Shown: positions 1-13,177 of the stretch, piece by piece
How positions within the stretch are numbered: position 1 is the stretch's first letter
How the letters are laid out: each line of letters opens with the position of its first letter
From: Planctomycetota bacterium
Lineage (GTDB): Bacteria > Planctomycetota > Phycisphaerae > Sedimentisphaerales > Anaerobacaceae
Assembly: GCA_019456255.1 (NCBI GenBank)
Contig: VRUG01000009.1
Location: 20,037 to 84,036 of the forward strand
Direction: 5' to 3'
Length of the DNA stretch: 64,000 bases
Translations under genes and position numbers: made by a program
Notes under the pieces: generated by a model
Database searches by the model: none
What the model saw: only the letters and a program-made list of their open reading frames with translations
What the model was told of the DNA's origin: nothing

Positions 1-281
1 GTTGGAAACAGGTATTAGAAGTTGGGGAACGTATATATACTATTGAACGCGAGTTGTGTTGTACTGAAAAAGATGGTTTCGTTAATGACGACTTACCTAA
101 ACGGTTCTTTGTAGGGGAAGGTTCAGTTGACAAGAAGCATTTCATAAAAATGCTTCTAGACTATTATTGCGAGTGTTCTTATGGGATTTGGGGAACTCCT
201 TCTATGGAACTTCGAAAAAGGCTTAACATAAATTTTGAAGATAAGTTCTTTTCAGAAATTGTAGATTTTTTGAGGGATTAA
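1..281 (+). CDS. aldehyde:ferredoxin oxidoreductase (AOR)-family protein, C-terminal fragment (5' end outside window)
   Basis: The frame is open from the window edge (WKQVLEVGERIYTIEREL...). The tail DDLPKRFF...KMLLDYY...WGTPS..L..L resembles the conserved AOR C-terminal signature (DTLPxRF..ML.EYY..RGW..G.P). Confidence 0.55.
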   Translation, partial: WKQVLEVGERIYTIERELCCTEKDGFVNDDLPKRFFVGEGSVDKKHFIKMLLDYYCECSYGIWGTPSMELRKRLNINFEDKFFSEIVDFLRD

Positions 282-1349
282 ATGACGCACTTTTTTGCTC
301 CGGGTCCAATTAAAATTCCAGATTGTTTACGAGAGGCTCTTAGTACTACTGCTCCATACTTTGCTGGAAAAGAGTTCTCTAAAGTACTTGAACAGATACA
401 ACCAAGGTTGCAAGAGGTCTTTAATACAGACAACCCAGTTATGATTGGTACTGGAAGTGGGTCTCTTGGAATGGAATGTGCTGTTACTAACTTCTTTAGT
501 CATGGCGATGTAGTAATAGTCTTGGTTACTGGTAAGTATGGGAAGAACTGGTCGGAAATGTGCCAGCGACATGGCCTTGTTGTAGCTGAAGTTTCTGCTC
601 CACCTGGTTCTGCTGCTTCGAAAGCGGAATTATCTGAATTAATGTCTCGTTTTTCGAAAGTCAAGGGAGTATTTATTACCCATGTGGATACGACTACTGG
701 GATTCTAAATCCTATTGAGGAATTTAGACATATTATTAGAACGTCGTATCCTAATACTCTCATTGTGGTTGACGCTATTTGTTCTCTTTTAACAGAACAA
801 CTAGTTAGTTCAAACTACGACGTAGTTATAAGTGCGTCCCAGAAGGCGTTATCACTTCCTCCCGGTCTATTTTTTATGACTGCATCTAGGTTGGCTGTGG
901 ATGTTGCAAGCCGTACTGAAGAGAGACCGTTTTACTTTGATGTAGTCAAAGAGTACGATAGGACTTTAACTAACACAACTACTTTTACTCCCGCTTCTAA
1001 CTTGATAATGGCACTCGACGTTGCTCTACGTATTATAGTTGATATTCTTACTCCCACTTTAATTATCGATCGGAGTATGATATTATCTACTTCTTCGAAA
1101 GTTACTCTTTCAAAAGCGGGACTTAGTTTGTTTTCTAAAAGTCCTGCTAACGCTATTACCGTAGTTTACCATTCAAATTCTGATTACATTATAAGTAAGC
1201 TTGAAGAGTCTGGTATTATTATAGGTTCTGGAGTTAGGGAATTAAAAGGTAAGATTTTTAGGATTATGCACTTTGGTTGGGACACTAAATCAAGGGACCT
1301 AGACGAAGTCTTGTCAAGCGTTATTCATTTTGCTGACCCTTATCCATGA
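282..1349 (+). CDS. class V (AGXT/serine-pyruvate/PhnW-like) PLP aminotransferase
   Basis: 355 aa. N-terminal PGP...P, GTGSGSLGME and SASQKALSLPPGL (PLP-lysine region) are typical of class V aminotransferases. Confidence 0.75.
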   Translation: MTHFFAPGPIKIPDCLREALSTTAPYFAGKEFSKVLEQIQPRLQEVFNTDNPVMIGTGSGSLGMECAVTNFFSHGDVVIVLVTGKYGKNWSEMCQRHGLVVAEVSAPPGSAASKAELSELMSRFSKVKGVFITHVDTTTGILNPIEEFRHIIRTSYPNTLIVVDAICSLLTEQLVSSNYDVVISASQKALSLPPGLFFMTASRLAVDVASRTEERPFYFDVVKEYDRTLTNTTTFTPASNLIMALDVALRIIVDILTPTLIIDRSMILSTSSKVTLSKAGLSLFSKSPANAITVVYHSNSDYIISKLEESGIIIGSGVRELKGKIFRIMHFGWDTKSRDLDEVLSSVIHFADPYP

Positions 1350-1358
1350 GGTAATAGT

Positions 1359-1853
1359 ATGAGGATTACGACGACTGGTCATAGGCCGAAGTACTGGGAG
1401 TCAATTAAAGGGGAAAAGAGCGGGTTCTTTCATCAGTTAGATTGGTACATAAATTTTAAAGGGCACGACCATAGCGAGTTGGTGTTTCTTCATGGTTGTG
1501 CTCTTGGGGTAGATACATGGTTTGGGGAATATGCAATGAAGAATAATATTGCATTAGAACTTCATCCACCTTTTCCAGTCGATGTGCAAATAGAAAAGGC
1601 TAAAATGGATAAAAAAGATATCGTTGAGTTTAGAAAGCAACTTGAATACGCAACTGATATCTTTGTAACGAACCAGAACTTTAGTATGTATGGGTACCAA
1701 AAGCGAAACATGGCTTTAGTTGACAATAGTGATGTAGTACTTGGTTGGTACAGGGTTGCGAAAAGTGGTTCTGGTAATTGTATTAATTATGCTAAGTTTA
1801 GGGGAGTACCAAATTATAACTTAAGAACTATGGTATTTAGGAGGGCACAATGA
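1359..1853 (+). CDS. SLOG/DUF1273-DUF2493-like Rossmann-fold protein
   Basis: 164 aa. N-terminal MRITTTGHRP and HGCALGVD motifs resemble the YoqJ/DprA-like SLOG families. Assignment is weak. Confidence 0.4.
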   Translation: MRITTTGHRPKYWESIKGEKSGFFHQLDWYINFKGHDHSELVFLHGCALGVDTWFGEYAMKNNIALELHPPFPVDVQIEKAKMDKKDIVEFRKQLEYATDIFVTNQNFSMYGYQKRNMALVDNSDVVLGWYRVAKSGSGNCINYAKFRGVPNYNLRTMVFRRAQ

Positions 1854-3283
1854 GTTTGAGACAATTCATAGATTCTTGTATGGGTGATGGCGATTGTTCA
1901 GTTATTCTAGACTTCTTAGATGTAGAACACGAAGTTGGGTCGTACATTCGGTCAAGTTGTGATCATGATGGGCCTATGTTGTTAACTAATCCAAACAGAA
2001 GTCACTTTAATGGCTTCACTATTGCTGGTGGGGTCTATGGGTCTAAAAGAAGAATCAAAAGGATTTTTGGGTACGATTCTGGAATATACGGTAGCAAATA
2101 TGTTGACAAGCCAGATTTTGAAGTTGTAAAGAGGTATGCTAAACTTGCTTTTGCTCCAGAAGGTTTTCTTCTTAATCGGGGTCTTGCTTCAGATGCTCCA
2201 TGTCAAGAGGTAGTAATAGATCAGGGCGACGTAGACCTTGGTAACTTTCCAGTTTGTACTCATAATGAATACGATAGTGGTGCTTTCATTACTGCTGGAG
2301 TTAATGTAGTTGAATGGGTCGCAGGTCAAGTTCAGGGACTTGGTATGCATAGGGTTTGTATTGTTAATCGCAATACTATCTCTTGCCTTGCTCCCATTAA
2401 TCGACGCATTGGATTTCCGCATTATAAGAAAGCTCCAATTAAGATGGCAGTCGTAATCGGGGCACCTCCAGAGGTTACCCTTGCATCTCAAGCAAAAGTG
2501 AATCAGAGGACTAATAAGTACCATATCGCTGACCATATCCGTGGTACTACCGTTCCACTTACTAAGTGTGTTACATCTAAATTACTTGTTCCATCAGAGG
2601 CAGAGATAGTTATTGAATGCACGTCTATTCCAGACTCCATTTACGACGACTCTCCTTTTGCTGAATACCCTGGTACTTATTCGTTTCGGAGTAACGCTTG
2701 GACAGCCCATGTAGATTGTATTACTACACGTAAAGATTGGATCTACCAAACACTCTTAACTGGTAAACTCCCACAAGAGGACTCTAACCTATGTGCTATT
2801 CCAATGGCGGCAGAGGTGTACAAAGTAGCAAAGAATCTTGTTGAAGAGGTTACAGATGTGTCTGCTTTTATTGGGAATAATGTTTTCGACACTATTATAT
2901 GTGTGAAAAAGAATTCAAATGAAGAAATTAGTAACTTAATTTGGACAATACTTGGCAACAAGTACATTAAGTCTGTAACTGTAATGGATGAGGATTTGAA
3001 AGCGAATGAGGAAGACTGGAGGTTTGCTTTTAATACTAGGTATCAACCAGATAGGGACACAACTATAACTGGCCTTGGACTGGGTGCTAGTTTAGACCCT
3101 AGTAGTCCTTTGTTTCAAAGCACTAGTAAGATAGCTTTAGACTTTACTATTCCTGTTGGTAAAACAGAATCTGATACTAACATGAATAAGAGAAGGCATT
3201 ACAAGTGTAATGCTAAGTTTAAAGATTCTGAAAGTGCTGTTTGGGATAGAATTGAAAAGTCTATTTTCCGGAAGAAATTGTAG
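1850..3283 (+). CDS. UbiD-family (prenyl-FMN-dependent) decarboxylase
   Basis: 477 aa, colinear with UbiD (GP.LL.N, G.HR..I...., V.IGA.P, SE.EIV.E, FAEYPG.Y, DW.FA..TR..P.RD, LD.T). ATGA overlap with the upstream gene. Confidence 0.7.
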   Translation: MSLRQFIDSCMGDGDCSVILDFLDVEHEVGSYIRSSCDHDGPMLLTNPNRSHFNGFTIAGGVYGSKRRIKRIFGYDSGIYGSKYVDKPDFEVVKRYAKLAFAPEGFLLNRGLASDAPCQEVVIDQGDVDLGNFPVCTHNEYDSGAFITAGVNVVEWVAGQVQGLGMHRVCIVNRNTISCLAPINRRIGFPHYKKAPIKMAVVIGAPPEVTLASQAKVNQRTNKYHIADHIRGTTVPLTKCVTSKLLVPSEAEIVIECTSIPDSIYDDSPFAEYPGTYSFRSNAWTAHVDCITTRKDWIYQTLLTGKLPQEDSNLCAIPMAAEVYKVAKNLVEEVTDVSAFIGNNVFDTIICVKKNSNEEISNLIWTILGNKYIKSVTVMDEDLKANEEDWRFAFNTRYQPDRDTTITGLGLGASLDPSSPLFQSTSKIALDFTIPVGKTESDTNMNKRRHYKCNAKFKDSESAVWDRIEKSIFRKKL

Positions 3284-3303
3284 TCTATTAGGAGGGCAAG
3301 AAG

Positions 3304-3552
3304 ATGGAAAATAAAGTATTTTTAGATTTTTTAGGGGAGGTACTTCCGAACTTAGAGGAGTACAGGGCAAAGCAGGTTAACAAGTACTATAGGGAGAAAG
3401 AGTTGGAGTGGGGTGGCGATAGTACGAAGATGGAAAAGTACAAGAATCGGGTTCGTGTAGTTGATACTTTTCTTGGTCCGTTAAAGTCTATGCTTACTAA
3501 GTATGGTCCCTTCCCAGTCATTACTGATGAAGACCAAAGGGACATAGCATAA
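3304..3552 (+). CDS. hypothetical protein
   Basis: 82-aa ORF preceded by aggaggg. Confidence 0.5.
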   Translation: MENKVFLDFLGEVLPNLEEYRAKQVNKYYREKELEWGGDSTKMEKYKNRVRVVDTFLGPLKSMLTKYGPFPVITDEDQRDIA

Positions 3553-3730
3553 ACGTAAACATTTTAAGAGAGGGCAAAAAAAAATGAGAAAGTACTATTA
3601 TAAAGGGTATGTACCGTTGAAACAGTACTGCCCAGATGTAGTAGGCGAAGATGGAGTAAGAGGAAAAGCCGGTATCAAATAGGCATCTTTACCTCACGAA
3701 CTCGCTGATAGAAATCAGCCGCGTATACTT

Positions 3731-4036
3731 GTGCAGGTACCACTTTCTATTGGTAATGAGTTGGGGTGGAACTTGAAGAAGGATTACTTTTATATATCTC
3801 GTAGAGATGGAAAGGTAACTACTAAAAGAAAACACGAATACGTGATTCATCGAGTTAGTAGATGTGATGGATACCTGTGGACGAGATACGATAGTACAAA
3901 GGATGGTTATGGTAGAATTTATTTTGGGTACTTTGGCGAGAACCTTCCACATTATGGTAAACAAATTGATGTTTATGATTTTACTCTTTCTGCTATCGGG
4001 CTTTGGTTTGACCTTCCAGATCCAAACGAGGTCTAA
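3731..4036 (+). CDS. hypothetical protein
   Basis: 101-aa ORF with no recognisable motif. A 32-aa ORF with an RBS lies just upstream in another frame. Confidence 0.35.
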   Translation: MQVPLSIGNELGWNLKKDYFYISRRDGKVTTKRKHEYVIHRVSRCDGYLWTRYDSTKDGYGRIYFGYFGENLPHYGKQIDVYDFTLSAIGLWFDLPDPNEV

Positions 4037-4041
4037 AATCG

Positions 4042-4923
4042 ATGTCAGAAGTTAAACTAAAAGTTAAGTTGTTAGATGTAACAAAGAACCCTGGGCCTCT
4101 TGTTGAGTCTATTGCAGAGATTTCTTATCAGACTCAAAGGTTCTTTGAAAGGAAACATCCCAAGTTAATCAAGTTTGGTTCCGGGCGTGTGGTGCCCTAC
4201 GAAGAGTTCGGGCTGGAAGTAGACCCCGAAATAGGTGAACCTCTTCCAGGGTACGTGAAGGATGATAACTACGTCTCTGAAATCATACCAGCAAGCTGGG
4301 AGAATGTGGTAAAGTTCATCCTTGCCATCGGGCACCACACGCCTCTTCAATGTTGCCATGCTACGTTTAAACTTCATGTTACCCGTAAATGTGCTTTGCA
4401 TTTACTTCGTTATGAGTTTTGTACTTTCAATATGCAGTCTCAGAAGTATAGAAACCAGGGAAGTTTTGAGTATTTGCTTCCAGATTTAGATGACGTCCCC
4501 TTTGGTGTACGGAAAACCTTAGGTAACTACATGAAAACAGCACAAGCCACATATGAAGAGTTGAGAAAAACTGGGGTTGATCCGGAATGGTCAAGGGCTG
4601 TATACCCCAACAATGTGCTTCAAATCATAACAATGGGCACTAACTTTAGGCAGTGGCGGCATATTTTTGATTGTTTGTGCGATGATGATTACGTTGGGGA
4701 AGATCAAGACGTTATGCTTCTAGTACTAGATGTTCTTCAACAAGAGGCTCCAGTTTTCTTTGATGACTTTGTAATTGCAGAAGATAGAAAGTCTGCTAGG
4801 AGAAAGGCCAGGAAGTATTCTAGGAATAAGAAAGTAAATTGGACCCTTTCACCGCAACAAAAAGAGGAGTTCGGAATTGAAATTCCTAAAGAGCCGGCAG
4901 GTTCTGAAACAGATATTCCGTAA
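4042..4923 (+). CDS. divergent ThyX-like (flavin-dependent thymidylate synthase fold) protein
   Basis: 293 aa with ThyX-like blocks (GHHTPLQ..HATF, FRQWRHIF). The dUMP-binding motif RHRxxSxxxxSxRY is degenerate (RYEFCTFNMQSQKY), and there are an extra N-terminal insert and a basic C-terminal tail. Confidence 0.6.
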   Translation: MSEVKLKVKLLDVTKNPGPLVESIAEISYQTQRFFERKHPKLIKFGSGRVVPYEEFGLEVDPEIGEPLPGYVKDDNYVSEIIPASWENVVKFILAIGHHTPLQCCHATFKLHVTRKCALHLLRYEFCTFNMQSQKYRNQGSFEYLLPDLDDVPFGVRKTLGNYMKTAQATYEELRKTGVDPEWSRAVYPNNVLQIITMGTNFRQWRHIFDCLCDDDYVGEDQDVMLLVLDVLQQEAPVFFDDFVIAEDRKSARRKARKYSRNKKVNWTLSPQQKEEFGIEIPKEPAGSETDIP

Positions 4924-4992
4924 GTTAAAGAAGCTTCTTATAAGATTCTTTAATCTGTACGGGAACATACCACATAGGTAAGGAGGTGTTTC

Positions 4993-7047
4993 TTGGAATT
5001 AAGTGAAAATGCTTTAGAGGTAATAAAGTTTAGATTTCTTGGTCCGGATGAGACCCCAGAACAAATGTTTGAAAGAGTTGCTAGTGCAGTTGCTGCTAGT
5101 GGGAGTCAGAACTATCTATTTTGGTATAATAGGTTTTTGGCAGCTTTTCTTAATCTTGACTTCCTACCAAGTACTCCAGGTCTTGCTAACGCTGGGAGAC
5201 CTATCGGTCAACTTATAGCTTGTTACGTAGTTGGAGTTGAAGATACTGTAGAGTCTATCTTCGATGCAATAAAGTATGCCGCAGTTATTCATAAAAGTGG
5301 GGGAGGAACTGGCTTTTCTTTTTCTAATATAAGGCCGAGTGGTAGTGTTGTACTTGAATCTAACGGGGTTGCTAGTGGTCCACTATCGTTTCTTAGGGTC
5401 TTTAATGCTGCTACTGCTGAAATGAAACAGGGAGGAGTTCGTCGTGGCGCTAACATGGCTATCTTACGGTGTGATCATCCAGATATATTTGAGTTTATTA
5501 ATGCTAAGAACGTTGAGGGATACTTATCAAACTTTAATCTAAGCGTCGATATTACAGATGAGTTTATGGAATGTTTGGCAGCGAAGGATAATTTTGATCT
5601 TAGATGGGATGGCAATGTAGTTCGAACTGTTAGAGCGGAGGACTTGTGGCGTGACATAGTTGCTGGTGCTTGGAAGAATGGAGAACCTGGAATTGTGTTT
5701 ATGGATCGTATAAATGATATGAATGAGTTGAAAATGGTTGAGACTCTTTCTGCTTGTAACCCTTGCGCAGAACAACCTTTGCCTGACTGGGGATCTTGTA
5801 ACTTGGGTTCTATTAACTTGTCTAACTTTACTGTTGGTAGATCTGTAGAATGGGGTAGGTTAAAAGAAGTAGTAGAGACTGCGGTGAGGTTTTTAGATAA
5901 TGTTATAGACGCTACGAGTTATCCGCTCAAAGAAATAGAGAAAGAAGCAAAATCGAAAAGGCGTATTGGACTTGGTATTATGGGTCTTGCGGATATGTTA
6001 ATAAAACTTGAGCTAGATTATGGTGACGTAAAAGGTCGGGCTGTTGCATCAAGTGTAATGAAGTTTATTACTACTGAGGCTGTTAAATATAGTGAGGAAC
6101 TTAGTAAGAAAGAGGGAGTACCGCCTTTACTGGATACTGTTTGTATTCAAAGAAGAAATGGGTTGATTACTACTATAGCTCCGACTGGGTCGATGAGTAT
6201 AATAGCAAATTGTTCTAGTGGGTGTGAACCAGTTTTCGCTTTTAAGTATACGAAGAGGTGTATTGAAAGTACAATCGAAGTAGTCCATCCACTTGCTAAA
6301 GAGTACTTTGATCGTGGAGAGGAACTTCCTTTCTACTTTGTTACTGCAGAAGATGTCCCAATGAAAGACCATATAAAAATGCAGGCTGCTTTACAACAGT
6401 ACGTTCATTCTGGAATTTCGAAGACTATAAATGCACCCGAAAGTACTACTATTGAAGAAGTATCTGATGCTTTTTTAGAGTGTTACAGGGCTGGGTGTAA
6501 ATCTATTGCTTTTTATCGTAAAGGTTCTCGTATACTCGAAAGTCAATACGAACAGGAAAAGGTAGCGAAACCTGTAGATACTGTATACGAAGATAGACCT
6601 AGAATTTTGTTTGGGTTTACGGAAAAGATAGCAACGTCTAAGGGTAACTTATACGTTACAGTTAATGAAAGCGACGATAAAAAGCCAGTCGAGGTTTTCC
6701 TTTCAATTGGAAAGTCTGGTAAAACAGACGCTGCTTATTCTGAAGCCCTTGGTCGTATAATTACCCTTGGTCTTAGATCTGGTCTTAATGTTGAGAAGAT
6801 TGTGAAGCATCTTAAAGGTATTAGTGGTGACGACCAGGTTTGGGATAATGGAGTAGCGATTAAGTCTATACCAGATGCCGTCGGGCAACTACTTGAAAGG
6901 GTTTACGTAGCTAAATCAGACAGTCCAAAGGCAACACAAGTTGAACGCCTTTCAGAATGTTGTCCTTCTTGTGGTGCTGAGGATACTTTAATACCCCAAG
7001 AGGGGTGTGTTGTTTGCACTTCGTGTGGGTGGGACAAATGCCTATAA
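4993..7047 (+). CDS. nrdJ: class II (adenosylcobalamin-dependent) ribonucleotide reductase
   Basis: 684 aa. Motifs: ACNPCAEQPLPDWGSCNLGSINL, TIAPTGS, SKTIN and a C-terminal CPSCG...CxxCGW zinc ribbon. TTG start 6 nt after aaggagg. Confidence 0.9.
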   Translation: MELSENALEVIKFRFLGPDETPEQMFERVASAVAASGSQNYLFWYNRFLAAFLNLDFLPSTPGLANAGRPIGQLIACYVVGVEDTVESIFDAIKYAAVIHKSGGGTGFSFSNIRPSGSVVLESNGVASGPLSFLRVFNAATAEMKQGGVRRGANMAILRCDHPDIFEFINAKNVEGYLSNFNLSVDITDEFMECLAAKDNFDLRWDGNVVRTVRAEDLWRDIVAGAWKNGEPGIVFMDRINDMNELKMVETLSACNPCAEQPLPDWGSCNLGSINLSNFTVGRSVEWGRLKEVVETAVRFLDNVIDATSYPLKEIEKEAKSKRRIGLGIMGLADMLIKLELDYGDVKGRAVASSVMKFITTEAVKYSEELSKKEGVPPLLDTVCIQRRNGLITTIAPTGSMSIIANCSSGCEPVFAFKYTKRCIESTIEVVHPLAKEYFDRGEELPFYFVTAEDVPMKDHIKMQAALQQYVHSGISKTINAPESTTIEEVSDAFLECYRAGCKSIAFYRKGSRILESQYEQEKVAKPVDTVYEDRPRILFGFTEKIATSKGNLYVTVNESDDKKPVEVFLSIGKSGKTDAAYSEALGRIITLGLRSGLNVEKIVKHLKGISGDDQVWDNGVAIKSIPDAVGQLLERVYVAKSDSPKATQVERLSECCPSCGAEDTLIPQEGCVVCTSCGWDKCL

Positions 7048-7544
7048 GTATACGCGACATGACTATAGGCGAGATCCGGTCGGCTTATCGTAAAGACCTA
7101 CAGCTTAACAGGTATCGACTAGAAGTAGCGTCAGAAGAACAGGCTACGAAGTTTGAGAAGTGGTATTCTGTAACAGAAGATGTTGCTGCAGATATCGAAG
7201 ATAAAAAAGCGTATTTAGCAGAAGTTAAAGCAAGGGTGGAAGTTGAGATTCGTAGTCTACCTAAACAAGATTTAGAAAAAAAATACCATGTTACGGATCT
7301 TAAAGAGAGTGTGGTTAAATCTCTTGTTGAATTGAATCCTACCGTACAGAAAGTTTCAAAGGAACTTCGTAAGTTAAAATTACTTCATAATAAGTTAAAG
7401 GGAGCAGTTGAGTCTGGTAGACAAAGAAAGTCTATGATTAGAGTTCTAGCAGATTTATATCAAGCAAACTACTGGGACAAAACTAAGATAAAGCAGACTG
7501 GTATTGATAGTATAAGAAGAGATAAAAAGGGTGGAGGAGTCTGA
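7038..7544 (+). CDS. hypothetical coiled-coil protein
   Basis: ATG at 7038 overlaps the nrdJ stop. K/E-rich heptad-like sequence. Confidence 0.5.
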   Translation: MPISIRDMTIGEIRSAYRKDLQLNRYRLEVASEEQATKFEKWYSVTEDVAADIEDKKAYLAEVKARVEVEIRSLPKQDLEKKYHVTDLKESVVKSLVELNPTVQKVSKELRKLKLLHNKLKGAVESGRQRKSMIRVLADLYQANYWDKTKIKQTGIDSIRRDKKGGGV

Positions 7545-7906
7545 TGAAATTTAAAGACTGTTTTGTTGGAGAGGATGGGAATGTTTGGAGGGCTTCGTCT
7601 TTGATTAAAGCCTCGAAAGACTTTGTAGTTTTTTCATTTGATGTGAGTAGTGTTGACCAAAGTGAAATACTAAGGTGGAAGCTAGTTAACCTACACGATT
7701 ATCTTAATCACTCCAGGAGGGTCTATGATGCTAACTTAACAACTCCTATTATTTTGAGATCAGATGGATATATTATGAATGGGTGGCATAGAGTAATTAA
7801 AGCCTTGTACTTAAAGGTAAAGTATTTACCAGCAAAACAGTTTAAGGTAGATTTAGAACCAGACTTTTCAGTGGAGGACAGTTGCAGTGAAGAGGAAAGC
7901 ATCTAA
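7544..7906 (+). CDS. ParB-like N-terminal (nuclease/CTPase-fold) domain protein
   Basis: 120 aa. PIILRSDGYIMNGWHRVIKA matches the ParB/Srx DGxHR core. Confidence 0.5.
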   Translation: MKFKDCFVGEDGNVWRASSLIKASKDFVVFSFDVSSVDQSEILRWKLVNLHDYLNHSRRVYDANLTTPIILRSDGYIMNGWHRVIKALYLKVKYLPAKQFKVDLEPDFSVEDSCSEEESI

Positions 7907-8966
7907 AAAAGAAGGTATATCAATTCTTAAAAGAACATCTGTTGTTACTGACTACTTAAGTACTGGGTCTACACCCCTTGACTTGTCTGTTAGTTGTAAT
8001 AAGTCTAACTATGGTGGTATTCCATCTGGTAGGATAACTGAGTTCTCTGGGGGTGGAGCGACTGGTAAAACGTATATATGTGGTGAGTTGTGTGGCGACG
8101 CTTTAAGAAAGGGATATGATCTTGTAGTAGTAGATGATATAGAAAGGAGATGGGACTTGAGTCGTATTGATACTTTTGGCTTGTCGTTGTCAGACAAAAG
8201 GTTTGTTTATTTAGATCCTGGTAGTTCTACTATTGAAGGGTGCTTTGAAACTATGTTTCAGAAGTTAGACAAGTTAAAGTCTGGGGAGAAATGCTTGTAT
8301 ATAGTCGATCCCATAGCAGCGTTGTATAGTAGGGTTGAAGTAGAAGCATCTGATAAAATGGGTCAAGCAAAAGCAAAAGCGCTTCAAAAGAATATGAGGT
8401 ATTTAAGGGATAGGGTGTACAGTGGCAGCGGAACGGCAGTTGTGTTTTCAAATCAGTTAATTGACGCTGTTGGTAAGTCGTTTGGCCCGAAGAAAATTGT
8501 ACCTGGTGGTAATGCTATGATTCATTGGCCGTCTGTTAGAGTTAGGTTTTCTGTGCCAAAGCAGGGAAAGATAACTGATACAGATTCTCCTGCTGGGAAG
8601 GAGATAACTAAGGTTGTTGGAATCCGGATACATGGCCGTGTTGAAAAGAATAGTGAAGACGACGCTTTTAGAGAATCAGATTTTTCTATTCAGTATGGTC
8701 ATGGAATAGATGACATTCTTGACTGCGCGTTGTGGTTAAAAACTTATACTACTGGTTTAGATGTTGACGGTAAAGATAGTAAGTGGTTTGGACTTTATGA
8801 TCATAGCCCGGTCTACACGCTGAGGAAGTTTATTGGGTTTGTTGAAAGGAATGATTTGGAAGAAGATTTATTAGACCTAACTTGTAGTCTTTATAGGAAA
8901 GTGTACAAAACGAAGGTTAGGAAAGGCAGGTATAGAAGAGATGAAGCGGAAAGCAATGGCGAGTAA
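7887..8966 (+). CDS. RecA-family recombinase
   Basis: 359 aa. TGSTPLDLSV..GGIPSGRITEFSGGGATGKT (Walker A) is colinear with the RecA N-terminal core. GTG start. Confidence 0.75.
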   Translation: MKRKASKKEGISILKRTSVVTDYLSTGSTPLDLSVSCNKSNYGGIPSGRITEFSGGGATGKTYICGELCGDALRKGYDLVVVDDIERRWDLSRIDTFGLSLSDKRFVYLDPGSSTIEGCFETMFQKLDKLKSGEKCLYIVDPIAALYSRVEVEASDKMGQAKAKALQKNMRYLRDRVYSGSGTAVVFSNQLIDAVGKSFGPKKIVPGGNAMIHWPSVRVRFSVPKQGKITDTDSPAGKEITKVVGIRIHGRVEKNSEDDAFRESDFSIQYGHGIDDILDCALWLKTYTTGLDVDGKDSKWFGLYDHSPVYTLRKFIGFVERNDLEEDLLDLTCSLYRKVYKTKVRKGRYRRDEAESNGE

Positions 8967-9288
8967 GCGTGATCGGCAAGTTAAAGTCGTTAAGCGTAAT
9001 AGAAAGCGTGGGCGGCGTAACGAAAAAGTTACTGCAGAAGCTATGGGGTTCGATCTTAAAGGTTTATATGGTGGTGAGGATGCAAAGAGTGAAAGTTTTA
9101 GTGCAGAGTATAAGGACAGGAAGAAGTTCGTTGGGTTTGGTTGGATGGAACAAGCAATTAGAAATTGCCCAAGTGGCAAGATTCCCTTAGTAGTTATACA
9201 TATAACTCACCAAAGAAGGTCAAAGGATTTAGTCATGATGAGACTTAGTGATTGGGTTGACTGGTATGGTAAGATAGGTGATGCTTAA
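8941..9288 (+). CDS. small PD-(D/E)XK nuclease, possible Holliday-junction resolvase
   Basis: 115 aa with a basic N-terminus, then E...GGED...AEYK (D...ExK-like) spacing. Confidence 0.4.
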   Translation: MKRKAMASKRDRQVKVVKRNRKRGRRNEKVTAEAMGFDLKGLYGGEDAKSESFSAEYKDRKKFVGFGWMEQAIRNCPSGKIPLVVIHITHQRRSKDLVMMRLSDWVDWYGKIGDA

Positions 9289-10348
9289 ACGTTTAAAAAT
9301 AGCGTACTTCCAATCTTGGGAGGAAGGTGAGTTTGTTCTTCATCCGGGACTTAACGTTATAATTGGTGAGAGCGATAAAGGAAAGAGTTCTGTAGGTCGG
9401 GCCTTTACTTGGTTCCTAAAAAATTCACTTCAAGACTTTAGTTTTCGTTCTACTTTTGCTGATAAAAAGGATGTTACTAAGTTCGTTGTTGAAGATGACA
9501 AAGGTAATGTTTTTTCAAGGGAAAGAGTTCCTGGTACAGCAAGTCAGAATAATAGATACAGACTTAATCGTAAAGTCTTCAAAGCAGTTGGAAAGGGCGT
9601 GCCAAAAGAAATTAGCGATGCTGTAAACTTATCTGAATATAACGTCCAACTACAACATGACAGGTACTTTTTGTTACAGGATACTCCAGCGGCTGCTGCT
9701 AAGGTTTTAAATTCTGTTACAGGACTCGAATCGATAGACTTTCTTCTTTCTCATATTAATAGTACCGATAGGACTGCTGATGCTGGGATTAGAACTAGAA
9801 AAAAAGAAATAGTAGAATTAAAAGCAGAGGCAAACAGATACAAGAACGTTGACGAACATGTAAAGGCTGTTGGTCTCTTGGAAACGTATCTTAATCAACG
9901 CGCTGTTTATAGAAGAGAGAGAACGGACATATATCAGTTACGTGACGACTACTTTATCCTTCAGGCTGAGTTGAATAGGTATGCCATGCTTGATGAAGTC
10001 GAAGAAAAGACTGGCGATTTATTTCAACTTGCAGACGATGTAATGAATGACCTTGCTACGCGAAATATGATTATTGAATTAATTGGCAACTTTGAATCTA
10101 TAGGACTTGAGATCGAGAAGTGTAATGAAGGGATTGAAGCAAAGGAAATTCTAGATGAACTAGCTCTAGAGATTCGTAAGCAGAAGAAGGTCAGGGTTAG
10201 TAGAGAGGAGTTTGGTAGGTTAATAAATGAGCATGGCGCTCTTTCTGCTGAGATAACAGGTTTAAATAGAGAGATAGAAGTATTGGAAAAGCAATATAAA
10301 AAGGAAATGGGTTCTGGAATTTGCCCACTATGTCTACGTAGCATATGA
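9281..10348 (+). CDS. SbcC/Rad50-like ATPase, N-terminal half (Walker A + coiled coil ending in a CxxC hook)
   Basis: GLNVIIGESDKGKSS P-loop, a long coiled coil, and the last residues GICPLCLRSI. Confidence 0.7.
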   Translation: MLKRLKIAYFQSWEEGEFVLHPGLNVIIGESDKGKSSVGRAFTWFLKNSLQDFSFRSTFADKKDVTKFVVEDDKGNVFSRERVPGTASQNNRYRLNRKVFKAVGKGVPKEISDAVNLSEYNVQLQHDRYFLLQDTPAAAAKVLNSVTGLESIDFLLSHINSTDRTADAGIRTRKKEIVELKAEANRYKNVDEHVKAVGLLETYLNQRAVYRRERTDIYQLRDDYFILQAELNRYAMLDEVEEKTGDLFQLADDVMNDLATRNMIIELIGNFESIGLEIEKCNEGIEAKEILDELALEIRKQKKVRVSREEFGRLINEHGALSAEITGLNREIEVLEKQYKKEMGSGICPLCLRSI

Positions 10349-10512
10349 AAGCCATAGTGCTCATAGGGTTGTTTGTGTTGTTGCCTGGTTGTAGTATCCT
10401 TCGCGGTAGTCTAATGGATAGTGGGAGTAGTCCATATCTTAATAGGTATAGGAGTTGTTCATGCTATTCGTATCAGTATTATCCCCATCTACATACTAAA
10501 GAATGCAGGTAG
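10345..10512 (+). CDS. small putative lipoprotein
   Basis: 55-aa ORF absent from the supplied track. MKAIVLIGLFVLLPGC is a signal peptide plus lipobox-like LPGC. ATGA-coupled to the upstream gene and ends 4 nt before the sbcD ATG. Confidence 0.4.
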   Translation: MKAIVLIGLFVLLPGCSILRGSLMDSGSSPYLNRYRSCSCYSYQYYPHLHTKECR

Positions 10513-10516
10513 CATT

Positions 10517-11485
10517 ATGAGATTCTTATGTACTGGTGATTGGCAGTTAAGGTTTCAACGGCCAAGAAGTCGTATAGATATCGATTATGCTTTAGCACAA
10601 GAAAAGAAAGTTGAATGGTTGTTGGCTACTGCAGTAGACGAGGGTTGTGCGTATTTACTTCAACCTGGTGACTTCTTTGATAGTTGCCATCCCTCTTTTG
10701 ACACTATGAGAAGGTACATAGAGTTGTTTAAGAGATATGAAGTAAAGATTTTGTGCGTCAGGGGTCAACACGATCTTAGATATCAGTCAACTAATATTGA
10801 CAATATTCCTCTAGCGGTTTTAGAAGCAGCGGGAGTTGTAGAAGTTGCTAGTAGAAATGGTATATGTGTTCGGGGTAGAGATCCTAGTGCTCATGCTCCA
10901 ATCGTTATTTATGGGTGTTCGTGGGGTGACGACGTATTCTATGTCGATGTCGACTCTGCTGATGATACTATTAACGTACTTCTTATCCATAAGATGGTTA
11001 CTGCAGATACTAACCTTCAATGGCCAGGTCAAACTGACTTTGTAACTGCTTCGTCTTTGTTGGAAGAGAATAGCTACGATCTTGTTGTATGTGGAGACAA
11101 TCATAAGTCACTTATTTTTAAAGATTCGTCTAGCCGGTATGTTGTAAATTGTGGTAGCTTGATGAGAGCAAATATTGATCAAGTTGACCATAAACCAGTC
11201 TCGTACATTTACGAATCAGATTCTAGGTCTATTGTAAGAAGAAGGCTTACTAATATAGCTCCAGCTGAGGCGGTATTTGCTATTGACTACGCAGAGCGTG
11301 AGTTGGAAAAGAAAAAAGATCTTGACTTGTTTATACGTTCAATTTCAAAATCGAAAAAAGTCGGGGTAGATTTTTTGAAAAACTTGTATACTAGATTAGA
11401 CCAAATGGAAGTACCAAAAGGTGTAAGGAAGATAATTGATGATGGAGTAAAGAAGTTTGGGGAACTTGAAGGAGACGGTTGGTAA
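10517..11485 (+). CDS. sbcD: SbcD/Mre11-family metallophosphoesterase nuclease
   Basis: The start MRFLCTGDWQL is motif I-like. GDFFD, RGQHD and GDNH are calcineurin-like phosphoesterase motifs. Confidence 0.7.
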   Translation: MRFLCTGDWQLRFQRPRSRIDIDYALAQEKKVEWLLATAVDEGCAYLLQPGDFFDSCHPSFDTMRRYIELFKRYEVKILCVRGQHDLRYQSTNIDNIPLAVLEAAGVVEVASRNGICVRGRDPSAHAPIVIYGCSWGDDVFYVDVDSADDTINVLLIHKMVTADTNLQWPGQTDFVTASSLLEENSYDLVVCGDNHKSLIFKDSSSRYVVNCGSLMRANIDQVDHKPVSYIYESDSRSIVRRRLTNIAPAEAVFAIDYAERELEKKKDLDLFIRSISKSKKVGVDFLKNLYTRLDQMEVPKGVRKIIDDGVKKFGELEGDGW

Positions 11486-11754
11486 TGAGAACTATGGATT
11501 CAGATGAGCTTGAGTTGGAAAGGAAACTTCGCCGGGTTAATAAGCTGAGGGCTACTTTAGAAGAGAGAAGGGAAAAGAAGCTTGTTGCTACTGGGAAGCA
11601 AGAGAATGTTTTAGAGAGACTTAGAAGGGAGTACAAGTGTAAGAGTATCGAGGCTTCTAAAAGTAGGTGTAAAAATATTGACGAGCGGGTTGCCCTAAGA
11701 AACAGAAGAATAGATAAGATATTTAGTGAGTTGGAAGAAGAATATGACCTCTAG
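11485..11754 (+). CDS. coiled-coil protein (possible Rad50 coiled-coil piece)
   Basis: 89 aa, R/E/K-rich. TAATG coupling to sbcD. Confidence 0.45.
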   Translation: MRTMDSDELELERKLRRVNKLRATLEERREKKLVATGKQENVLERLRREYKCKSIEASKSRCKNIDERVALRNRRIDKIFSELEEEYDL

Positions 11755-12406
11755 TAACAAAGTTTATAGTATGAATTCAGACGTTCTTGCTTCTAGTAAT
11801 AAATTCTTAGAAGCTAGGGATGCGGTACTTAAGGCTAAAGTAAAAAGGGAATCTTTGTTAGAAGAGATAGATGCAAAAGAAAGAGAGATAAAGGATTTGG
11901 AAAAGGTAATTAGTGATGCTGGAAAAGCCAGAGTCATCGTACAAAAGGTTGCCAGTGAAACTCAAAGTGTTGTTGAATACCATATATCTGGTGTTGTGGG
12001 TTTAGCAGAATCTGCTATATTTGACGATCCTTATGGGGTTGAGTTAGACTTTGTTGAAAGGCGTAATGTAACTGAGTGCGACTTTTACTTCACGAAGGGT
12101 TTTGATAGGTTTAATCCAATGTCTAGTGCTGGAGGTGGACCTCTTGACGTTGCATCGTTTGGGATTTTTATTGCTATATGGAGTTTTGGTCGTACTCGTC
12201 CTTTTTTGTTATTAGATGAGCCTTTTAAGTATGTTTCATCTAATCTTCAAGGAAGATGTTCTGAAATGATTAAGCAAATAACACTAGACCATAATCTCCA
12301 GATACTAATGATATCTCACTTACCACATATGATAGATAGTGCAGATAAGGTGTTTGAAGTTACGCAAGATAAACATGGTGTTAGTGATGTAAGAGAGGTT
12401 AGGTAA
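11744..12406 (+). CDS. SbcC/Rad50-like ATPase, C-terminal half (signature, Walker B, H-loop)
   Basis: SSAGGGPLD (signature-like), FLLLDEPF (Walker B/D-loop) and MISHLP (H-loop), after an N-terminal coiled coil. Confidence 0.65.
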   Translation: MTSSNKVYSMNSDVLASSNKFLEARDAVLKAKVKRESLLEEIDAKEREIKDLEKVISDAGKARVIVQKVASETQSVVEYHISGVVGLAESAIFDDPYGVELDFVERRNVTECDFYFTKGFDRFNPMSSAGGGPLDVASFGIFIAIWSFGRTRPFLLLDEPFKYVSSNLQGRCSEMIKQITLDHNLQILMISHLPHMIDSADKVFEVTQDKHGVSDVREVR

Positions 12407-12407
12407 C

Positions 12408-12707
12408 ATGCAAACTAAAGTATGTAATATTAAAATGGACAAATATGCTAAGGGTGTCTACATTGGACGTGGTCCACGAAAATACAAGCACTACGGTAAC
12501 CCGTTTAGAATAGGGCGTGATGGTAGTAGAGCTGATGTGATAAAGAAATTTGAGGAGTGGCTAGATGGAAAGCATCCCGAAGTCGCGCCTCAAAGAAGGA
12601 AATGGGTTTTAGAAAACGAGCATCTTCTAAAGAATAGAACTTTACTATGTCACTGTGCTCCAGAACCTTGCCATGGTGACGTTTATGTTAAACGATCGGG
12701 AGTTTAG
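12408..12707 (+). CDS. DUF4326 domain protein
   Basis: 99 aa with GNPF...R......F..WL.....L.G..L.CHC.P..CHGDV, the characteristic DUF4326 pattern. Confidence 0.7.
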   Translation: MQTKVCNIKMDKYAKGVYIGRGPRKYKHYGNPFRIGRDGSRADVIKKFEEWLDGKHPEVAPQRRKWVLENEHLLKNRTLLCHCAPEPCHGDVYVKRSGV

Positions 12708-12720
12708 TTGTGCTGCGAGT

Positions 12721-12864: not shown

Positions 12865-12969
12865 TTTAATTTAATTAAGGGGTAAACGATGAACTCTAAA
12901 AGAAATCCTTCTGGGTTATATCCAGAATGTATGTCTTTTTAGTCAGATTCCTGTTAATGGAGAGGTATC

Positions 12970-13176: not shown

Positions 13177-13177
13177 A

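What the first reader, a model, noticed from the sequence alone, without database searches (positions are those of the whole stretch)
1..3283. AOR-family / class-V aminotransferase / SLOG / UbiD-decarboxylase cluster at the window edge
An aminotransferase, a UbiD-type (prenyl-FMN) (de)carboxylase and an aldehyde:ferredoxin oxidoreductase-like protein together resemble a route from amino acid to 2-oxo acid to aldehyde to acid. Alternatively they could form an aromatic or heteroaromatic (de)carboxylation route. I am not aware of AOR-family (tungsto/molybdopterin) or UbiD enzymes being commonly reported in phage genomes. The AOR gene is truncated by the window, so cofactor genes and UbiX may lie upstream.
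Basis: partly seen in the sequence, partly recalled or inferred. Interest (0 to 1): 0.6.

Follow-up and report, generated by a model that had tools for sequence, protein, structure and literature searches.

The report
Phage AOR–transaminase–UbiD nucleobase-tailoring operon
A family of uncultivated large phages that swap guanine in their DNA for a modified base lacks the usual genes for making that base. Instead it carries a conserved operon of a tungsten/molybdenum-type aldehyde oxidoreductase, a transaminase, a nucleotide-binding protein and an unusual UbiD decarboxylase, which is probably a new way to supply or tailor the base.

Summary
Window 1-3283 holds the last 92 codons of a complete 686-aa AOR, an AGXT-type class-V aminotransferase, a YpsA-type SLOG protein and a UbiD homologue. 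The genes abut or overlap, and the contig is a ~111-kb tailed phage.

- **Conservation:** The block recurs in the same order, at 36-60% identity, in more than 10 metagenomic relatives. An AOR-ferredoxin-UbiD core recurs in a second phage lineage at ~30% identity.
- **Cofactor sites:** AOR keeps its Fe-S and pterin motifs, and the transaminase keeps its PLP lysine. UbiD keeps the catalytic D-R-E triad, but all three Mn2+ ligands (N/H/E) are replaced by G/R/K. Three relatives carry UbiX.
- **Context:** 3-8 kb upstream lie two DNA-guanine transglycosylases, one DpdA-like and one DpdA3-type. The phage has no FolE, QueD, QueE or QueC, whereas 36 of 48 other DpdA3-type phage records have QueD and none of those has AOR or UbiD.

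My best reading (about 40%) is that the operon remodels the C7 side chain of host-made 7-deazaguanines (aminomethyl, formyl, carboxyl, H) to feed the transglycosylases. A UbiD enzyme is already proposed for this decarboxylation in tubercidin biosynthesis. The substrate and reaction direction are inferred, not shown.

The parts
1..281 (+). 3' end (last 92 codons) of the AOR-family gene. The full 686-aa gene starts 1,780 nt upstream of the window (contig C340:18257-20317 = L003:8257-10317).
   Evidence: The full protein matches AFOR_N 5.7e-50 and AFOR_C 9.3e-57. C300, C303, C307, C566, E314-Y315, D347, D561 and RGADH462 are invariant across 26 viral and ~50 cellular homologues. It is the only AOR in the whole MAG.
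282..1349 (+). Class-V (AGXT/SGAT/PhnW/pyridoxamine-pyruvate type) PLP aminotransferase, 355 aa. Its start codon directly follows the AOR stop codon.
   Evidence: Pfam and NCBIfam matches are. The nearest PDB relatives are serine/alanine-glyoxylate aminotransferases, and 2Z9U scores 1e-22. Asp164 and the SQK Lys188 are invariant in 11 lineage members.
1359..1853 (+). YpsA-type SLOG-domain protein, 164 aa.
   Evidence: A profile search finds YpsA and DprA at 4e-4. The AF2 model (pLDDT 93) matches YpsA 2NX2 at TM 0.71 by Foldseek. The TGHR, HGCAxGVD and SGSG motifs are invariant. The LOG motif PGGxGTxxE is absent.
1850..3283 (+). UbiD-family (de)carboxylase, 477 aa, of a divergent viral 'G/R/K' subfamily. 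Its start overlaps the SLOG stop by 4 nt.
   Evidence: Pfam and NCBIfam matches are. The best PDB match is HmfF (6H6V) at 8.6e-30. The catalytic residues D267, R168 and E272 are kept. The Mn ligands N/H/E are replaced by G163 (38/40), R186 (40/40) and K223 (40/40). The same pattern is seen in G018 and L025.
3304..3552 (+). Conserved 82-aa ORF of unknown function directly after UbiD. It may belong to the operon.
   Evidence: It has homologues at 44-57% identity in 10 related loci at the same position. It has no Pfam or PHROG match.
4042..4923 (+). Divergent ThyX paralogue, 293 aa, always one or two small ORFs downstream of UbiD. It may be functionally linked to the operon.
   Evidence: It matches Thy1 at 4.6e-23. 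It lies next to UbiD in all related loci that reach that far, and also in G018 and L025. The ThyX motif RHRxxSxxxxSxR reads RY(E/Q/R)F…SQK, and the protein has a ~40-aa insert and a basic C-terminal tail. The phage also carries two canonical ThyX genes.

Best explanation
AOR, the aminotransferase, the SLOG protein and UbiD form one co-translated operon. Together they act as the small-molecule arm of this phage's DNA guanine-replacement system.

The phage encodes two DNA-guanine transglycosylases just upstream, a bacterial-type DpdA and a DpdA3. These enzymes exchange guanine in DNA for a free 7-deazaguanine-type base. The phage has none of the FolE, QueD, QueE or QueC genes that make such a base.

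I propose that the operon takes 7-deazaguanine intermediates made by the host queuosine pathway and remodels their C7 substituent in three steps:
1. The PLP transaminase interconverts the aminomethyl group of preQ1 and a 7-formyl group.
2. AOR interconverts 7-formyl and 7-carboxy (CDG), using ferredoxin.
3. The UbiD enzyme removes the carboxyl group to give 7-deazaguanine.

The most likely net flow is downhill: preQ1 to aldehyde to CDG to 7-deazaguanine. DpdA3 and DpdA would then insert the product into phage DNA as protection against restriction. The SLOG protein probably binds a nucleotide form of the base or releases the base from it.

**Shown:** gene identities, intact active sites, operon structure, deep conservation, the transglycosylase context, the absence of Que genes, and the co-occurrence pattern.

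**Inferred:** the substrate, the direction of flow and the role of SLOG.
For: 1. **Operon structure.** The gaps are 0 nt between AOR and the aminotransferase and 9 nt before SLOG, and SLOG and UbiD overlap by 4 nt. No terminator lies inside the block.
2. **Purifying selection.** The order AOR-AT-SLOG-UbiD-s82-ThyXdiv is kept in 10 or more metagenomic loci at only 36-63% identity.
3. **Second lineage.** A phage lineage at ~30% identity (IMG/VR G018) keeps DpdA3-DCD-PolA…AOR-polyferredoxin-x-UbiD-x-ThyXdiv. It also carries a radical-SAM protein with a weak match to the tungsten-enzyme maturase TIGR04317. In a cellular contig (L014), the closest cellular AOR found on a long contig (34% identity) sits directly after a UbiD gene and before a ferredoxin gene. 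AOR and UbiD are therefore linked in three independent settings.
4. **Active sites are intact.** Details are.
5. **DpdA identity.** The 464-aa upstream protein matches NCBIfam DpdA at 4.7e-50 and PDB 7UI4 at 3.5e-23. It keeps D95, F99, D130, G206-G207, D256 and the CxCxxC…H zinc site (residue roles from PMC10164549).
6. **DpdA3 identity.** The 268-aa neighbour folds as a TGT (pLDDT 86.5; Foldseek hits TGT at 2.6e-10 and DpdA 7UI4 at 2.3e-9). [quoted passage not shown]
7. **No Que genes on the phage.** The contig has no FolE, QueD, QueC or QueE-sized radical-SAM gene, whereas the binned host genome has all of them.
8. **Complementary distribution.** Of 48 IMG/VR records with a DpdA3-like gene, 36 have QueD and none of those has AOR or UbiD. 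The single record with AOR and UbiD lacks QueD. Counting this contig as a second AOR/UbiD genome, Fisher p = 0.059.
9. **Chemical precedent.**
   - A UbiD-family enzyme (TubF) is the proposed decarboxylase of 7-carboxy-7-deazaguanine ribotide in tubercidin biosynthesis (PMC6112128).
   - AnInD decarboxylates indole-3-carboxylate, and it couples to an acid reductase to give the aldehyde (PMC8988006).
   - The AGXT family contains pyridoxamine-pyruvate transaminase, which interconverts an aryl-CH2NH2 and an aryl-CHO group.
   - dDG, dCDG and dPreQ1 all occur in phage DNA, and the decarboxylase that makes DG (candidate DpdL) remains unproven (PMC10516641).
Against: - No result here touches the substrate directly.
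- The G018 lineage has AOR and UbiD but no transaminase or SLOG, so the three-step chain is not universal.
- Relative L007 has lost AOR but keeps AT-SLOG-UbiD.
- Complete genome replacement by DpdA3 would need far more 7-deazaguanine than a host queuosine pathway normally makes.
- All three canonical Mn2+ ligands of UbiD are replaced. This phage has no UbiX, so prFMN use is inferred from relatives only.
- YpsA-type SLOG proteins have no known enzymatic role.
- The adjacent divergent ThyX, the DCD-like gene and the kinase would fit pyrimidine chemistry equally well.
- The host assignment rests on metagenomic binning.
- The co-occurrence statistic rests on two independent lineages.
Confidence: 0.4

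Rival explanations
1. The same enzymes run in the biosynthetic, CO2-fixing direction on a nucleobase: UbiD carboxylates a ring C-H, AOR reduces the acid to the aldehyde using reduced ferredoxin, and the transaminase produces an aminomethyl group. This would be a natural counterpart of the engineered UbiD-CAR-transaminase cascades. The inserted base would be a 7-formyl or 7-aminomethyl deazaguanine, or another C1-decorated guanine analogue.
For: The AOR+UbiD core is conserved, and in G018 and L026 it comes with its own polyferredoxin, which suits reductive operation. UbiD carboxylation pulled by acid reduction has been demonstrated in vitro for indole (PMC8988006). The phage lacks QueC and QueF, so this would be an alternative way to reach a preQ1-type side chain.
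Against: It requires two consecutive uphill steps. No source of the unsubstituted ring (7-deazaguanine) is evident without Que genes. G018 lacks the transaminase.
Confidence: 0.15
2. The module works on pyrimidine nucleotides at C5, interconverting 5-carboxy, 5-formyl and 5-aminomethyl forms of dUMP or dCMP. It would act together with the divergent ThyX, the dCTP-deaminase-like protein and the dNMP-kinase-like protein to give a hypermodified thymidine or cytidine.
For: The divergent ThyX lies next to UbiD in three lineages. DCD-like and AAA_28 kinase genes are conserved nearby. 5-Carboxyuracil is an acrylic-type acid, which is chemically suitable for a UbiD enzyme (inference). The phage has two additional canonical ThyX genes, which suggests the divergent one does something else.
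Against: This reading does not explain why two guanine transglycosylases are kept without Que genes. All known thymidine hypermodifications proceed via 5-hydroxymethyl-dU and a kinase, not via formyl or carboxy intermediates (my own knowledge). DCD and kinase genes also accompany DpdA3 in Que-positive phages.
Confidence: 0.12
3. The block is an auxiliary metabolic module that reprogrammes host fermentation or aromatic catabolism (amino acid or amine to aldehyde to acid, with ferredoxin reduction, plus aromatic acid decarboxylation). It would be unrelated to DNA. This is essentially the first reader's first idea.
For: An aminotransferase plus AOR is the classical peptide-fermentation pair in anaerobes (my own knowledge). 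The nearest AOR and UbiD relatives are cellular catabolic-type enzymes.
Against: The block sits inside the replication and nucleotide module between SSB and ThyX/RNR in every relative. No 2-oxo-acid decarboxylase is present. The distribution among DpdA3 phages is complementary to QueD. A nucleotide-binding SLOG gene is embedded in the block.
Confidence: 0.1
4. The module, perhaps with ThyXdiv and the small ORFs, builds a guanine-replacing base de novo by a route unrelated to the FolE/QueD/QueE pathway.
For: The distribution is complementary to QueD. DpdA3 phages characterised so far replace 100% of G, which a host queuosine pathway could hardly supply (PMC10516641).
Against: No ring-forming enzyme has been identified. 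The idea is purely inferential. At least one complete DpdA3-type phage (G028) has neither QueD nor AOR/UbiD, so relying on the host is possible.
Confidence: 0.08

Closest known systems
[quoted passage not shown]
   Same: A DpdA3-type transglycosylase lies a few genes upstream of a family-A DNA polymerase, with kinase and dUTPase-like neighbours and side-chain tailoring genes nearby. The function is presumed to be the same: replacing G to evade restriction.
   Different: Those phages encode FolE, QueD and QueE (with or without QueC and QueF). Their tailoring enzymes are DpdL, DpdM and DpdN. This lineage has none of these genes. Instead it has AOR, an AGXT-type transaminase, SLOG and UbiD, plus a second, bacterial-type DpdA.
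Tubercidin biosynthesis: TubE (CDG phosphoribosyltransferase) followed by TubF (UbiD-family decarboxylase), Streptomyces tubercidicus (PMC6112128)
   Same: A UbiD-family enzyme is proposed to remove the 7-carboxyl group of a 7-carboxy-7-deazaguanine compound. The pathway also lacks QueC.
   Different: It is an actinomycete secondary-metabolite cluster that acts on the ribotide. It has no AOR, transaminase or DNA transglycosylase. I could not obtain the TubF sequence, so homology at subfamily level is untested.
DpdL, the QueD-paralogue candidate for CDG decarboxylase in phiST (PMC10516641)
   Same: It is proposed for the same reaction, CDG to 7-deazaguanine, feeding DpdA3.
   Different: It has an unrelated fold (T-fold, metal-dependent), and no activity was detected on expression in E. 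coli. No PTPS/QueD-family gene, the family DpdL belongs to, was found on this contig (PF01242 search).
Engineered UbiD-carboxylic acid reductase(-transaminase) cascades, for example AnInD + CAR converting indole to indole-3-carboxaldehyde (PMC8988006)
   Same: The same three functional-group interconversions are used on a heteroaromatic ring: C-H, COOH, CHO and CH2NH2.
   Different: These are synthetic in-vitro systems that use ATP/NADPH-dependent CAR. Here a ferredoxin-dependent pterin enzyme (AOR) is genetically linked to UbiD in nature.
Canonical prFMN-dependent UbiD enzymes (Fdc1, HmfF, AroY, HudA, AnInD)
   Same: They share the three-domain architecture and the E(D)-R-E catalytic network. 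UbiX is encoded beside the module in three relatives.
   Different: The Mn2+ ligands N168, H191 and E233 (Fdc1 numbering, PMC4947166) are G(V)/R/K in every viral member, with an extra invariant K216. This suggests the prFMN phosphate is bound without a metal.

Membership tests
Aldehyde:ferredoxin oxidoreductase (AOR) family | AFOR_N plus AFOR_C domains over the full length | tested here: met
   AFOR_N scores 5.7e-50 and AFOR_C 9.3e-57 on the 686-aa protein.
Aldehyde:ferredoxin oxidoreductase (AOR) family | Four Cys ligands of the [4Fe-4S] cluster (CxxCxxxC plus a distal C), two DxxGL(C/D) pterin motifs, and the catalytic Glu and His | tested here: met
   C300, C303, C307, C566, D347 (NDPGLD), D561…C566 (DALGIC), E314 and H462 (RGADH) are invariant in 26 viral and ~50 cellular homologues. 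The assignment of roles to these residues follows P. furiosus AOR and comes from my own knowledge.
Aldehyde:ferredoxin oxidoreductase (AOR) family | Tungsten or molybdenum bis-pyranopterin cofactor, and a ferredoxin partner | not testable with these tools
   The binned host has MoaC with an adjacent MoaA-like radical-SAM gene but no AOR of its own. This lineage has no ferredoxin gene in the block, whereas G018 and L026 have one.
UbiD family of prFMN-dependent (de)carboxylases | UbiD_N, UbiD and UbiD_C domains, and the E(D)-R-E catalytic network | tested here: met
   All three Pfam domains match. D267, R168 and E272 are invariant in 40 clade members.
UbiD family of prFMN-dependent (de)carboxylases | Mn2+ ligands Asn, His and Glu that anchor the prFMN phosphate (Fdc1 N168, H191, E233) | tested here: not met
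   The viral clade has G163 (38/40), R186 (40/40) and K223 (40/40), whereas 13 of 14 bacterial homologues have N/H/E. G018 has V/R/K. Ligand identities are from PMC4947166.
UbiD family of prFMN-dependent (de)carboxylases | A UbiX flavin prenyltransferase partner | tested here: inconclusive
   This phage contig has none. The MAG has one Flavoprotein-family gene, on C110. UbiX-like genes lie beside PolA in relatives L006, L007 and L022.
Class-V (fold-type I, AGXT-like) PLP aminotransferases | Aminotran_5 domain, the Schiff-base Lys (SxQK) and the pyridine-N Asp | tested here: met
   PF00266 scores 6.6e-15. K188 and D164 are invariant in 11 members. No NCBIfam equivalog reaches its cut-off, so substrate specificity is unassigned.
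SLOG superfamily, YpsA family | Rossmann-like SLOG fold with a Gly-rich nucleotide-binding loop | tested here: met
   The AF2 model has pLDDT 93. Foldseek finds YpsA 2NX2 at E=1.5e-8 and TM 0.71, followed by DprA, ShosA and the ThsA SLOG domain. A profile search finds YpsA and DprA at 4e-4.
LOG phosphoribohydrolases (the enzymatic SLOG branch) | PGGxGTxxE catalytic motif | tested here: not met
   The motif is absent. LOG structures rank only weakly in the fold search. A base-releasing activity is therefore conjecture.
DpdA DNA-guanine transglycosylase (bacterial type) | TGT TIM barrel with catalytic Asp95, Asp130 and Asp256, the Gly-Gly loop and the CxCxxC…H zinc site | tested here: met
   In the alignment to 7UI4, D (ADPGTF), D (SVDW), GG (IGGL), D (SFDNT) and CDCSSC…FHN are conserved. 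H181 is Gln, as in tRNA TGTs (residue roles). NCBIfam DpdA scores 170.6 bits against a cut-off of 200, so this is a family relative rather than an equivalog.
DpdA3 subfamily (phage, complete G replacement) | A short TGT-fold protein homologous to the phiST, CP220 and immuto DpdA3 proteins | tested here: met
   tblastn gives 3e-16 to the annotated DpdA of vB_FspM_immuto_2-6A and about 1e-5 to CP220-group phages. The TGT fold is confirmed. IMG/VR holds 85 relatives, and in 64 of 81 loci the gene lies within a few kb of PolA, usually just upstream.
Phage 7-deazaguanine biosynthesis (FolE-QueD-QueE with or without QueC) | The phage itself encodes the pathway genes | tested here: not met
   Contig C340 has no hit to PF01242, PF06508 or PF01227 and no QueE-sized radical-SAM gene. 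All hits lie on other contigs of the MAG.
TubF-type 7-carboxy-7-deazapurine decarboxylase | Subfamily-level homology to TubF and activity on CDG or its ribotide | not tested
   No TubF sequence was obtainable with these tools. Only the literature precedent is available.

The most novel reading that the evidence does not exclude
This is a Que-gene-independent supply line for a guanine-replacing base, in which a natural UbiD-AOR(-transaminase) cascade installs or strips a one-carbon side chain on a nucleobase. Three things would follow:
- It would be a first case, to my knowledge, of a phage-encoded pterin (W/Mo) enzyme acting in DNA modification.
- The UbiD subfamily would bind prFMN without metal.
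- The end product might be a base not yet seen in DNA, such as 7-formyl-7-deazaguanine, or 7-methyl-7-deazaguanine made by the adjacent ThyX-like enzyme from the decarboxylated ring.
Probability: 0.15. Interest if true: 0.9.

Novelty: new variant of a known kind. Interest (0 to 1): 0.75.

Why it matters
- **An open enzymatic question.** How phages make 7-deazaguanine (dDG) is unresolved, because the proposed decarboxylase DpdL showed no activity. A UbiD-type enzyme linked to DpdA3 is a concrete, testable alternative, and it has a precedent in tubercidin biosynthesis.
- **New enzyme classes in phage DNA modification.** The module would add two oxygen-sensitive, cofactor-heavy enzyme classes, pterin-dependent AOR and prFMN-dependent UbiD, to the phage DNA-modification toolkit.
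- **A natural version of a designed cascade.** The linked UbiD, acid-reductase and transaminase steps match a cascade that biocatalysis groups built by design.
- **A new UbiD binding mode.** The subfamily with charge-reversed metal ligands is a distinct structural target.
- **A database blind spot.** Automated provirus trimming cut this module out of the one IMG/VR record of the lineage that I could trace. Similar host-like phage pathways may be systematically under-reported.

Tried and rejected
**Searches that found nothing or little**
- tblastn of AOR against GenBank phages found nothing. tblastn of UbiD found only low-identity (24-29%) hits, mostly in bacterial contigs or fragmentary/unannotated records.
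- Pattern scans of IMG/VR with single proteins and with the UbiD alignment found nothing. The same scan of GTDB genomes also found nothing. The UbiD of G018 (32% identity) was missed by these pattern scans and turned up only through the DpdA3 neighbour.
- A literature search for AOR as a phage auxiliary gene found no paper.
- Earlier scan notes held nothing on this module.
I therefore could not look for systematic G miscalls in nanopore reads or for expression of the operon.

**Leads that went nowhere**
- DpdL is not a match for UbiD. It is a QueD paralogue and is absent here.
- The 293-aa ORF that stands where AOR would be in L007 has no Pfam hit and no homologue in the other loci or in the MAG.
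- The phosphoribosyltransferase in L007 has no counterpart in this phage and, from its sequence, looks more like an orotate phosphoribosyltransferase to me than like TubE.
- The bacterial UbiD P0058, which shares Q/R/K at the ligand positions, sits in an acyl-CoA catabolic cluster and says nothing about the phage substrate.

**Ideas considered and rejected**
- Host contamination or mis-assembly: rejected, because phage genes flank the block on both sides in every relative.
- The small ORF after UbiD as a VdcD-like subunit: rejected, because it has no Cys residues.

Full report
**What is there**

The window is positions 20037-84036 of a 111,222-bp contig (C340) binned into a 4.07-Mb MAG. The contig has 39.4% G+C against 43.7% for the MAG. 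Almost all long ORFs (40 of the 42 ORFs of 150 aa or more listed) lie on one strand. The genes include:
- a portal, a head protease/major head protein, a UvsX-type recombinase and endonuclease VII;
- a primase-helicase, a family-A polymerase with an N-terminal UDG-like domain, a gp32-like SSB, RNR and ThyX.

This is a tailed phage genome.

- **AOR.** The gene truncated by the window edge is complete on the contig: 686 aa with both AOR domains.
- **Aminotransferase.** The second gene is an AGXT/SGAT/PhnW/pyridoxamine-pyruvate-type class-V enzyme.
- **SLOG.** The third gene is a YpsA-type SLOG protein. Sequence profiles support this weakly, and the predicted fold supports it clearly (pLDDT 93; YpsA 2NX2 at TM 0.71).
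- **UbiD.** The fourth gene has all three UbiD domains.

The AOR stop codon abuts the aminotransferase start. The next gap is 9 nt, and SLOG and UbiD overlap by 4 nt. No terminator-like site above chance lies inside the block. The G+C content of the block equals the phage average.

**Are the enzymes intact?**

- **AOR.** An alignment of 26 viral, 3 intermediate and ~50 cellular AORs shows all the key residues to be invariant: four cluster cysteines, both pterin motifs, and the Glu and His next to the metal.
- **Aminotransferase.** The PLP Lys (SQK) and Asp are invariant in 11 relatives.
- **UbiD.** The catalytic R168 and E272 are kept, and the first acidic residue is D267.
  - The three residues that ligate Mn2+ and hold the prFMN phosphate in Fdc1 are N168, H191 and E233 (PMC4947166).
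  - In the viral clade these positions are G163 (38/40), R186 (40/40) and K223 (40/40). In 13 of 14 bacterial homologues they are N/H/E.
  - An extra lysine, K216, is invariant as well.
  - The same swap is present in a UbiD from a second phage lineage that is only 32% identical.
  - A coordinated change of this kind, with two ligands becoming cationic, looks like a different way of holding the phosphate rather than decay.
  - UbiX genes sit beside the module in three relatives.
  - This phage has no UbiX. The MAG has one candidate gene.

**Conservation**

UbiD has about 47 metagenomic homologues at 41-61% identity, after which identity drops to 32% or less in cellular proteins. AOR shows the same pattern, with about 25 homologues at 42-55%.

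Every context I could fetch has the same order: DpdA-like, 268-aa protein, DCD-like, PolA, (UbiX), SSB, AOR, AT, SLOG, UbiD, small ORF, divergent ThyX, RNR, RecA. Protein identities in the block are only 36-63%, so it has been kept intact over long divergence.
- One relative (L007) has lost AOR but keeps AT-SLOG-UbiD and UbiX.
- The one IMG/VR record of this lineage is labelled a provirus. It ends at the stop codon of SSB, 230 nt before the AOR gene of the same JGI contig. This is consistent with automated trimming having removed the module as host DNA, which would explain why IMG/VR scans found no relatives.

**The decisive context**

- **The 464-aa upstream protein is a DpdA-type DNA-guanine transglycosylase.**
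  - It matches NCBIfam DpdA at 4.7e-50 and PDB 7UI4 at 3.5e-23.
  - All three catalytic aspartates, the Gly-Gly loop and the zinc motif are conserved (residue roles from PMC10164549).
- **The 268-aa protein next to it is a DpdA3.**
  - It has no Pfam hit, but its model folds as a TGT (pLDDT 86.5; Foldseek TGT 2.6e-10 and DpdA 2.3e-9).
  - It aligns to the DpdA profile with the nucleophile motif in register.
  - These are the DpdA3 subfamily, which completely replaces G with a 7-deazaguanine derivative (PMC10516641).
- **The characterised DpdA3 phages discussed in that paper encode FolE, QueD and QueE**.
- **This contig has none of them.** It has no FolE, QueD, QueC or QueE-sized radical-SAM gene, while the binned host has them all.

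I then looked at 48 IMG/VR records of 17 kb or more that carry a DpdA3-like gene.
- 36 have QueD, including 9 of the 10 records that are at least 90% complete.
- Exactly one, G018, has an AOR and a UbiD, and it lacks QueD.
- G018 is a distant relative (about 30% identity) with this order: kinase, DpdA3, DCD, PolA, SSB, FEN, radical SAM, AOR, polyferredoxin, x, UbiD, x, divergent ThyX. Its radical-SAM protein weakly matches the tungsten-enzyme maturase family.
- The closest cellular AOR found on a long contig (34% identity) also lies directly after a UbiD gene and before a ferredoxin gene.

AOR and UbiD therefore travel together in three independent settings. Among DpdA3 phages they occur only where Que genes are missing. 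The Fisher test gives p = 0.059, but it rests on only two lineages.

**Mechanism proposed**

The three enzyme families catalyse three interconversions: aryl-CH2NH2 with aryl-CHO (as pyridoxamine-pyruvate transaminase does within the AGXT family), aryl-CHO with aryl-COOH (AOR), and aryl-COOH with aryl-H (UbiD). These link four side-chain states of 7-deazaguanine: preQ1, 7-formyl, CDG and 7-deazaguanine. preQ1, CDG and 7-deazaguanine are known in phage DNA as dPreQ1, dCDG and dDG.

Precedents exist for two of the steps.
- A UbiD-family enzyme is the proposed decarboxylase of the CDG ribotide in tubercidin biosynthesis (PMC6112128).
- A UbiD enzyme decarboxylates the analogous indole-3-carboxylate, and it can be coupled to acid reduction (PMC8988006).

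I therefore propose that the operon converts 7-deazaguanine intermediates made by the host into the base that DpdA3 and DpdA insert. The most likely flow is in the thermodynamically favourable order: preQ1, then aldehyde, then CDG, then 7-deazaguanine. Draining preQ1 could also keep the host pathway derepressed; this last point is inference only.

SLOG may bind a nucleotide form of the base or release the base from it. It lacks the LOG catalytic motif, so this is conjecture.

The substrate, the direction and the SLOG role are all inferred. I put this model at about 0.4.

**Rivals**

- The same chemistry runs in the CO2-fixing, biosynthetic direction (0.15).
- The module performs C5 chemistry on pyrimidine nucleotides together with the divergent ThyX, the DCD-like protein and the kinase (0.12).
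- It is a de novo route to a new base that does not use the Que pathway (0.08).

Several observations cut against the main model.
- G018 lacks the transaminase and SLOG.
- L007 lacks AOR.
- Host queuosine flux looks too small for complete genome replacement.
- The ThyX paralogue is tightly linked to UbiD in three lineages, and its dUMP motif is altered (RHR to RYx). It also has a basic C-terminal tail. This phage carries two further canonical ThyX genes, which points to a separate and unknown role.

**Verdict**

- **Observation:** confirmed.
partly supported.
- **What it is:** a conserved phage operon of cofactor-heavy enzymes not previously described in phages, as far as I could find. It is embedded in a DpdA/DpdA3 guanine-replacement system that lacks the usual biosynthetic genes.
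- **Novelty class:** a new variant of a known kind of system.
- **Testability:** the proposal can be tested directly by nucleoside mass spectrometry and by four enzyme assays.

Noticed in passing
IMG/VR record IMGVR_UViG_3300041402_001383 (L029/L109) versus JGI contig Ga0402100_0000015 (L015): The IMG/VR 'provirus' record stops at 37,161, which is the end of the SSB gene. The AOR gene of the same contig starts 230 nt later. This is consistent with automated host/virus boundary calling having removed the AOR-UbiD module and about 22 kb of further phage genes.
   Followed up: partly
L014 (ENA ERZ25039477 contig_64861), locus 1063-13219: This cellular contig carries a Bmp-family (nucleoside-binding type) ABC transporter, a cyclase, a canonical UbiD, the closest cellular AOR found on a long contig (34% identity), a polyferredoxin and a B12-binding protein next to MtmB. 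It may be a cellular UbiD-AOR pathway for an N-heterocycle.
   Followed up: partly
L111:14568-18080 (IMG/VR G018): A second phage lineage encodes a radical-SAM protein with a weak match to the tungsten-cofactor oxidoreductase maturase family (TIGR04317, 2.4e-8), and a 206-aa polyferredoxin. These two genes flank its AOR.
   Followed up: partly
L003:2454-3212, window 4042-4923 and window 38141-38815: One phage carries three ThyX paralogues. Two have a canonical or near-canonical ThyX motif and lack the insert and tail (window 38141-38815 reads RHR; L003:2454-3212 reads RYR). The third is divergent, with RHR changed to RYE, a 40-aa insert and a basic 50-aa C-terminal tail.
   Followed up: partly
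L029-L108 (IMG/VR loci): DpdA3-like genes are widespread in IMG/VR (85 relatives found). In 64 of 81 loci a family-A DNA polymerase gene lies within a few kb, in most cases just downstream of the DpdA3-like gene. One complete DTR genome (G028, 52 kb) has a DpdA3-like gene but no QueD, AOR or UbiD.
   Followed up: partly
L007:1570-2073 and L007:11538-11945: Two paralogous Cys-rich ORFs lie in the relative that has lost AOR, one in the DpdA3-DCD interval and one in the UbiD-ThyX interval. From their sequence they look like homing-endonuclease-associated proteins. They may mark mobile insertions in this module.
   Followed up: no
L003:4716-7232: The family-A DNA polymerase has an N-terminal UDG-superfamily domain (PF03167, 9.6e-15). 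This fusion is conserved in all relatives.
   Followed up: no
window 1-64000: GC skew is strongly positive (+0.11 to +0.33) in every 2-kb bin of the window, so G greatly exceeds C on the coding strand throughout.
   Followed up: no
L026 (Logan SRR32473240 contig), 166-3632: Another short contig carries an AOR (36% identity), a polyferredoxin and a 5'-3' exonuclease. It looks like a third phage-like context for this AOR subfamily.
   Followed up: no
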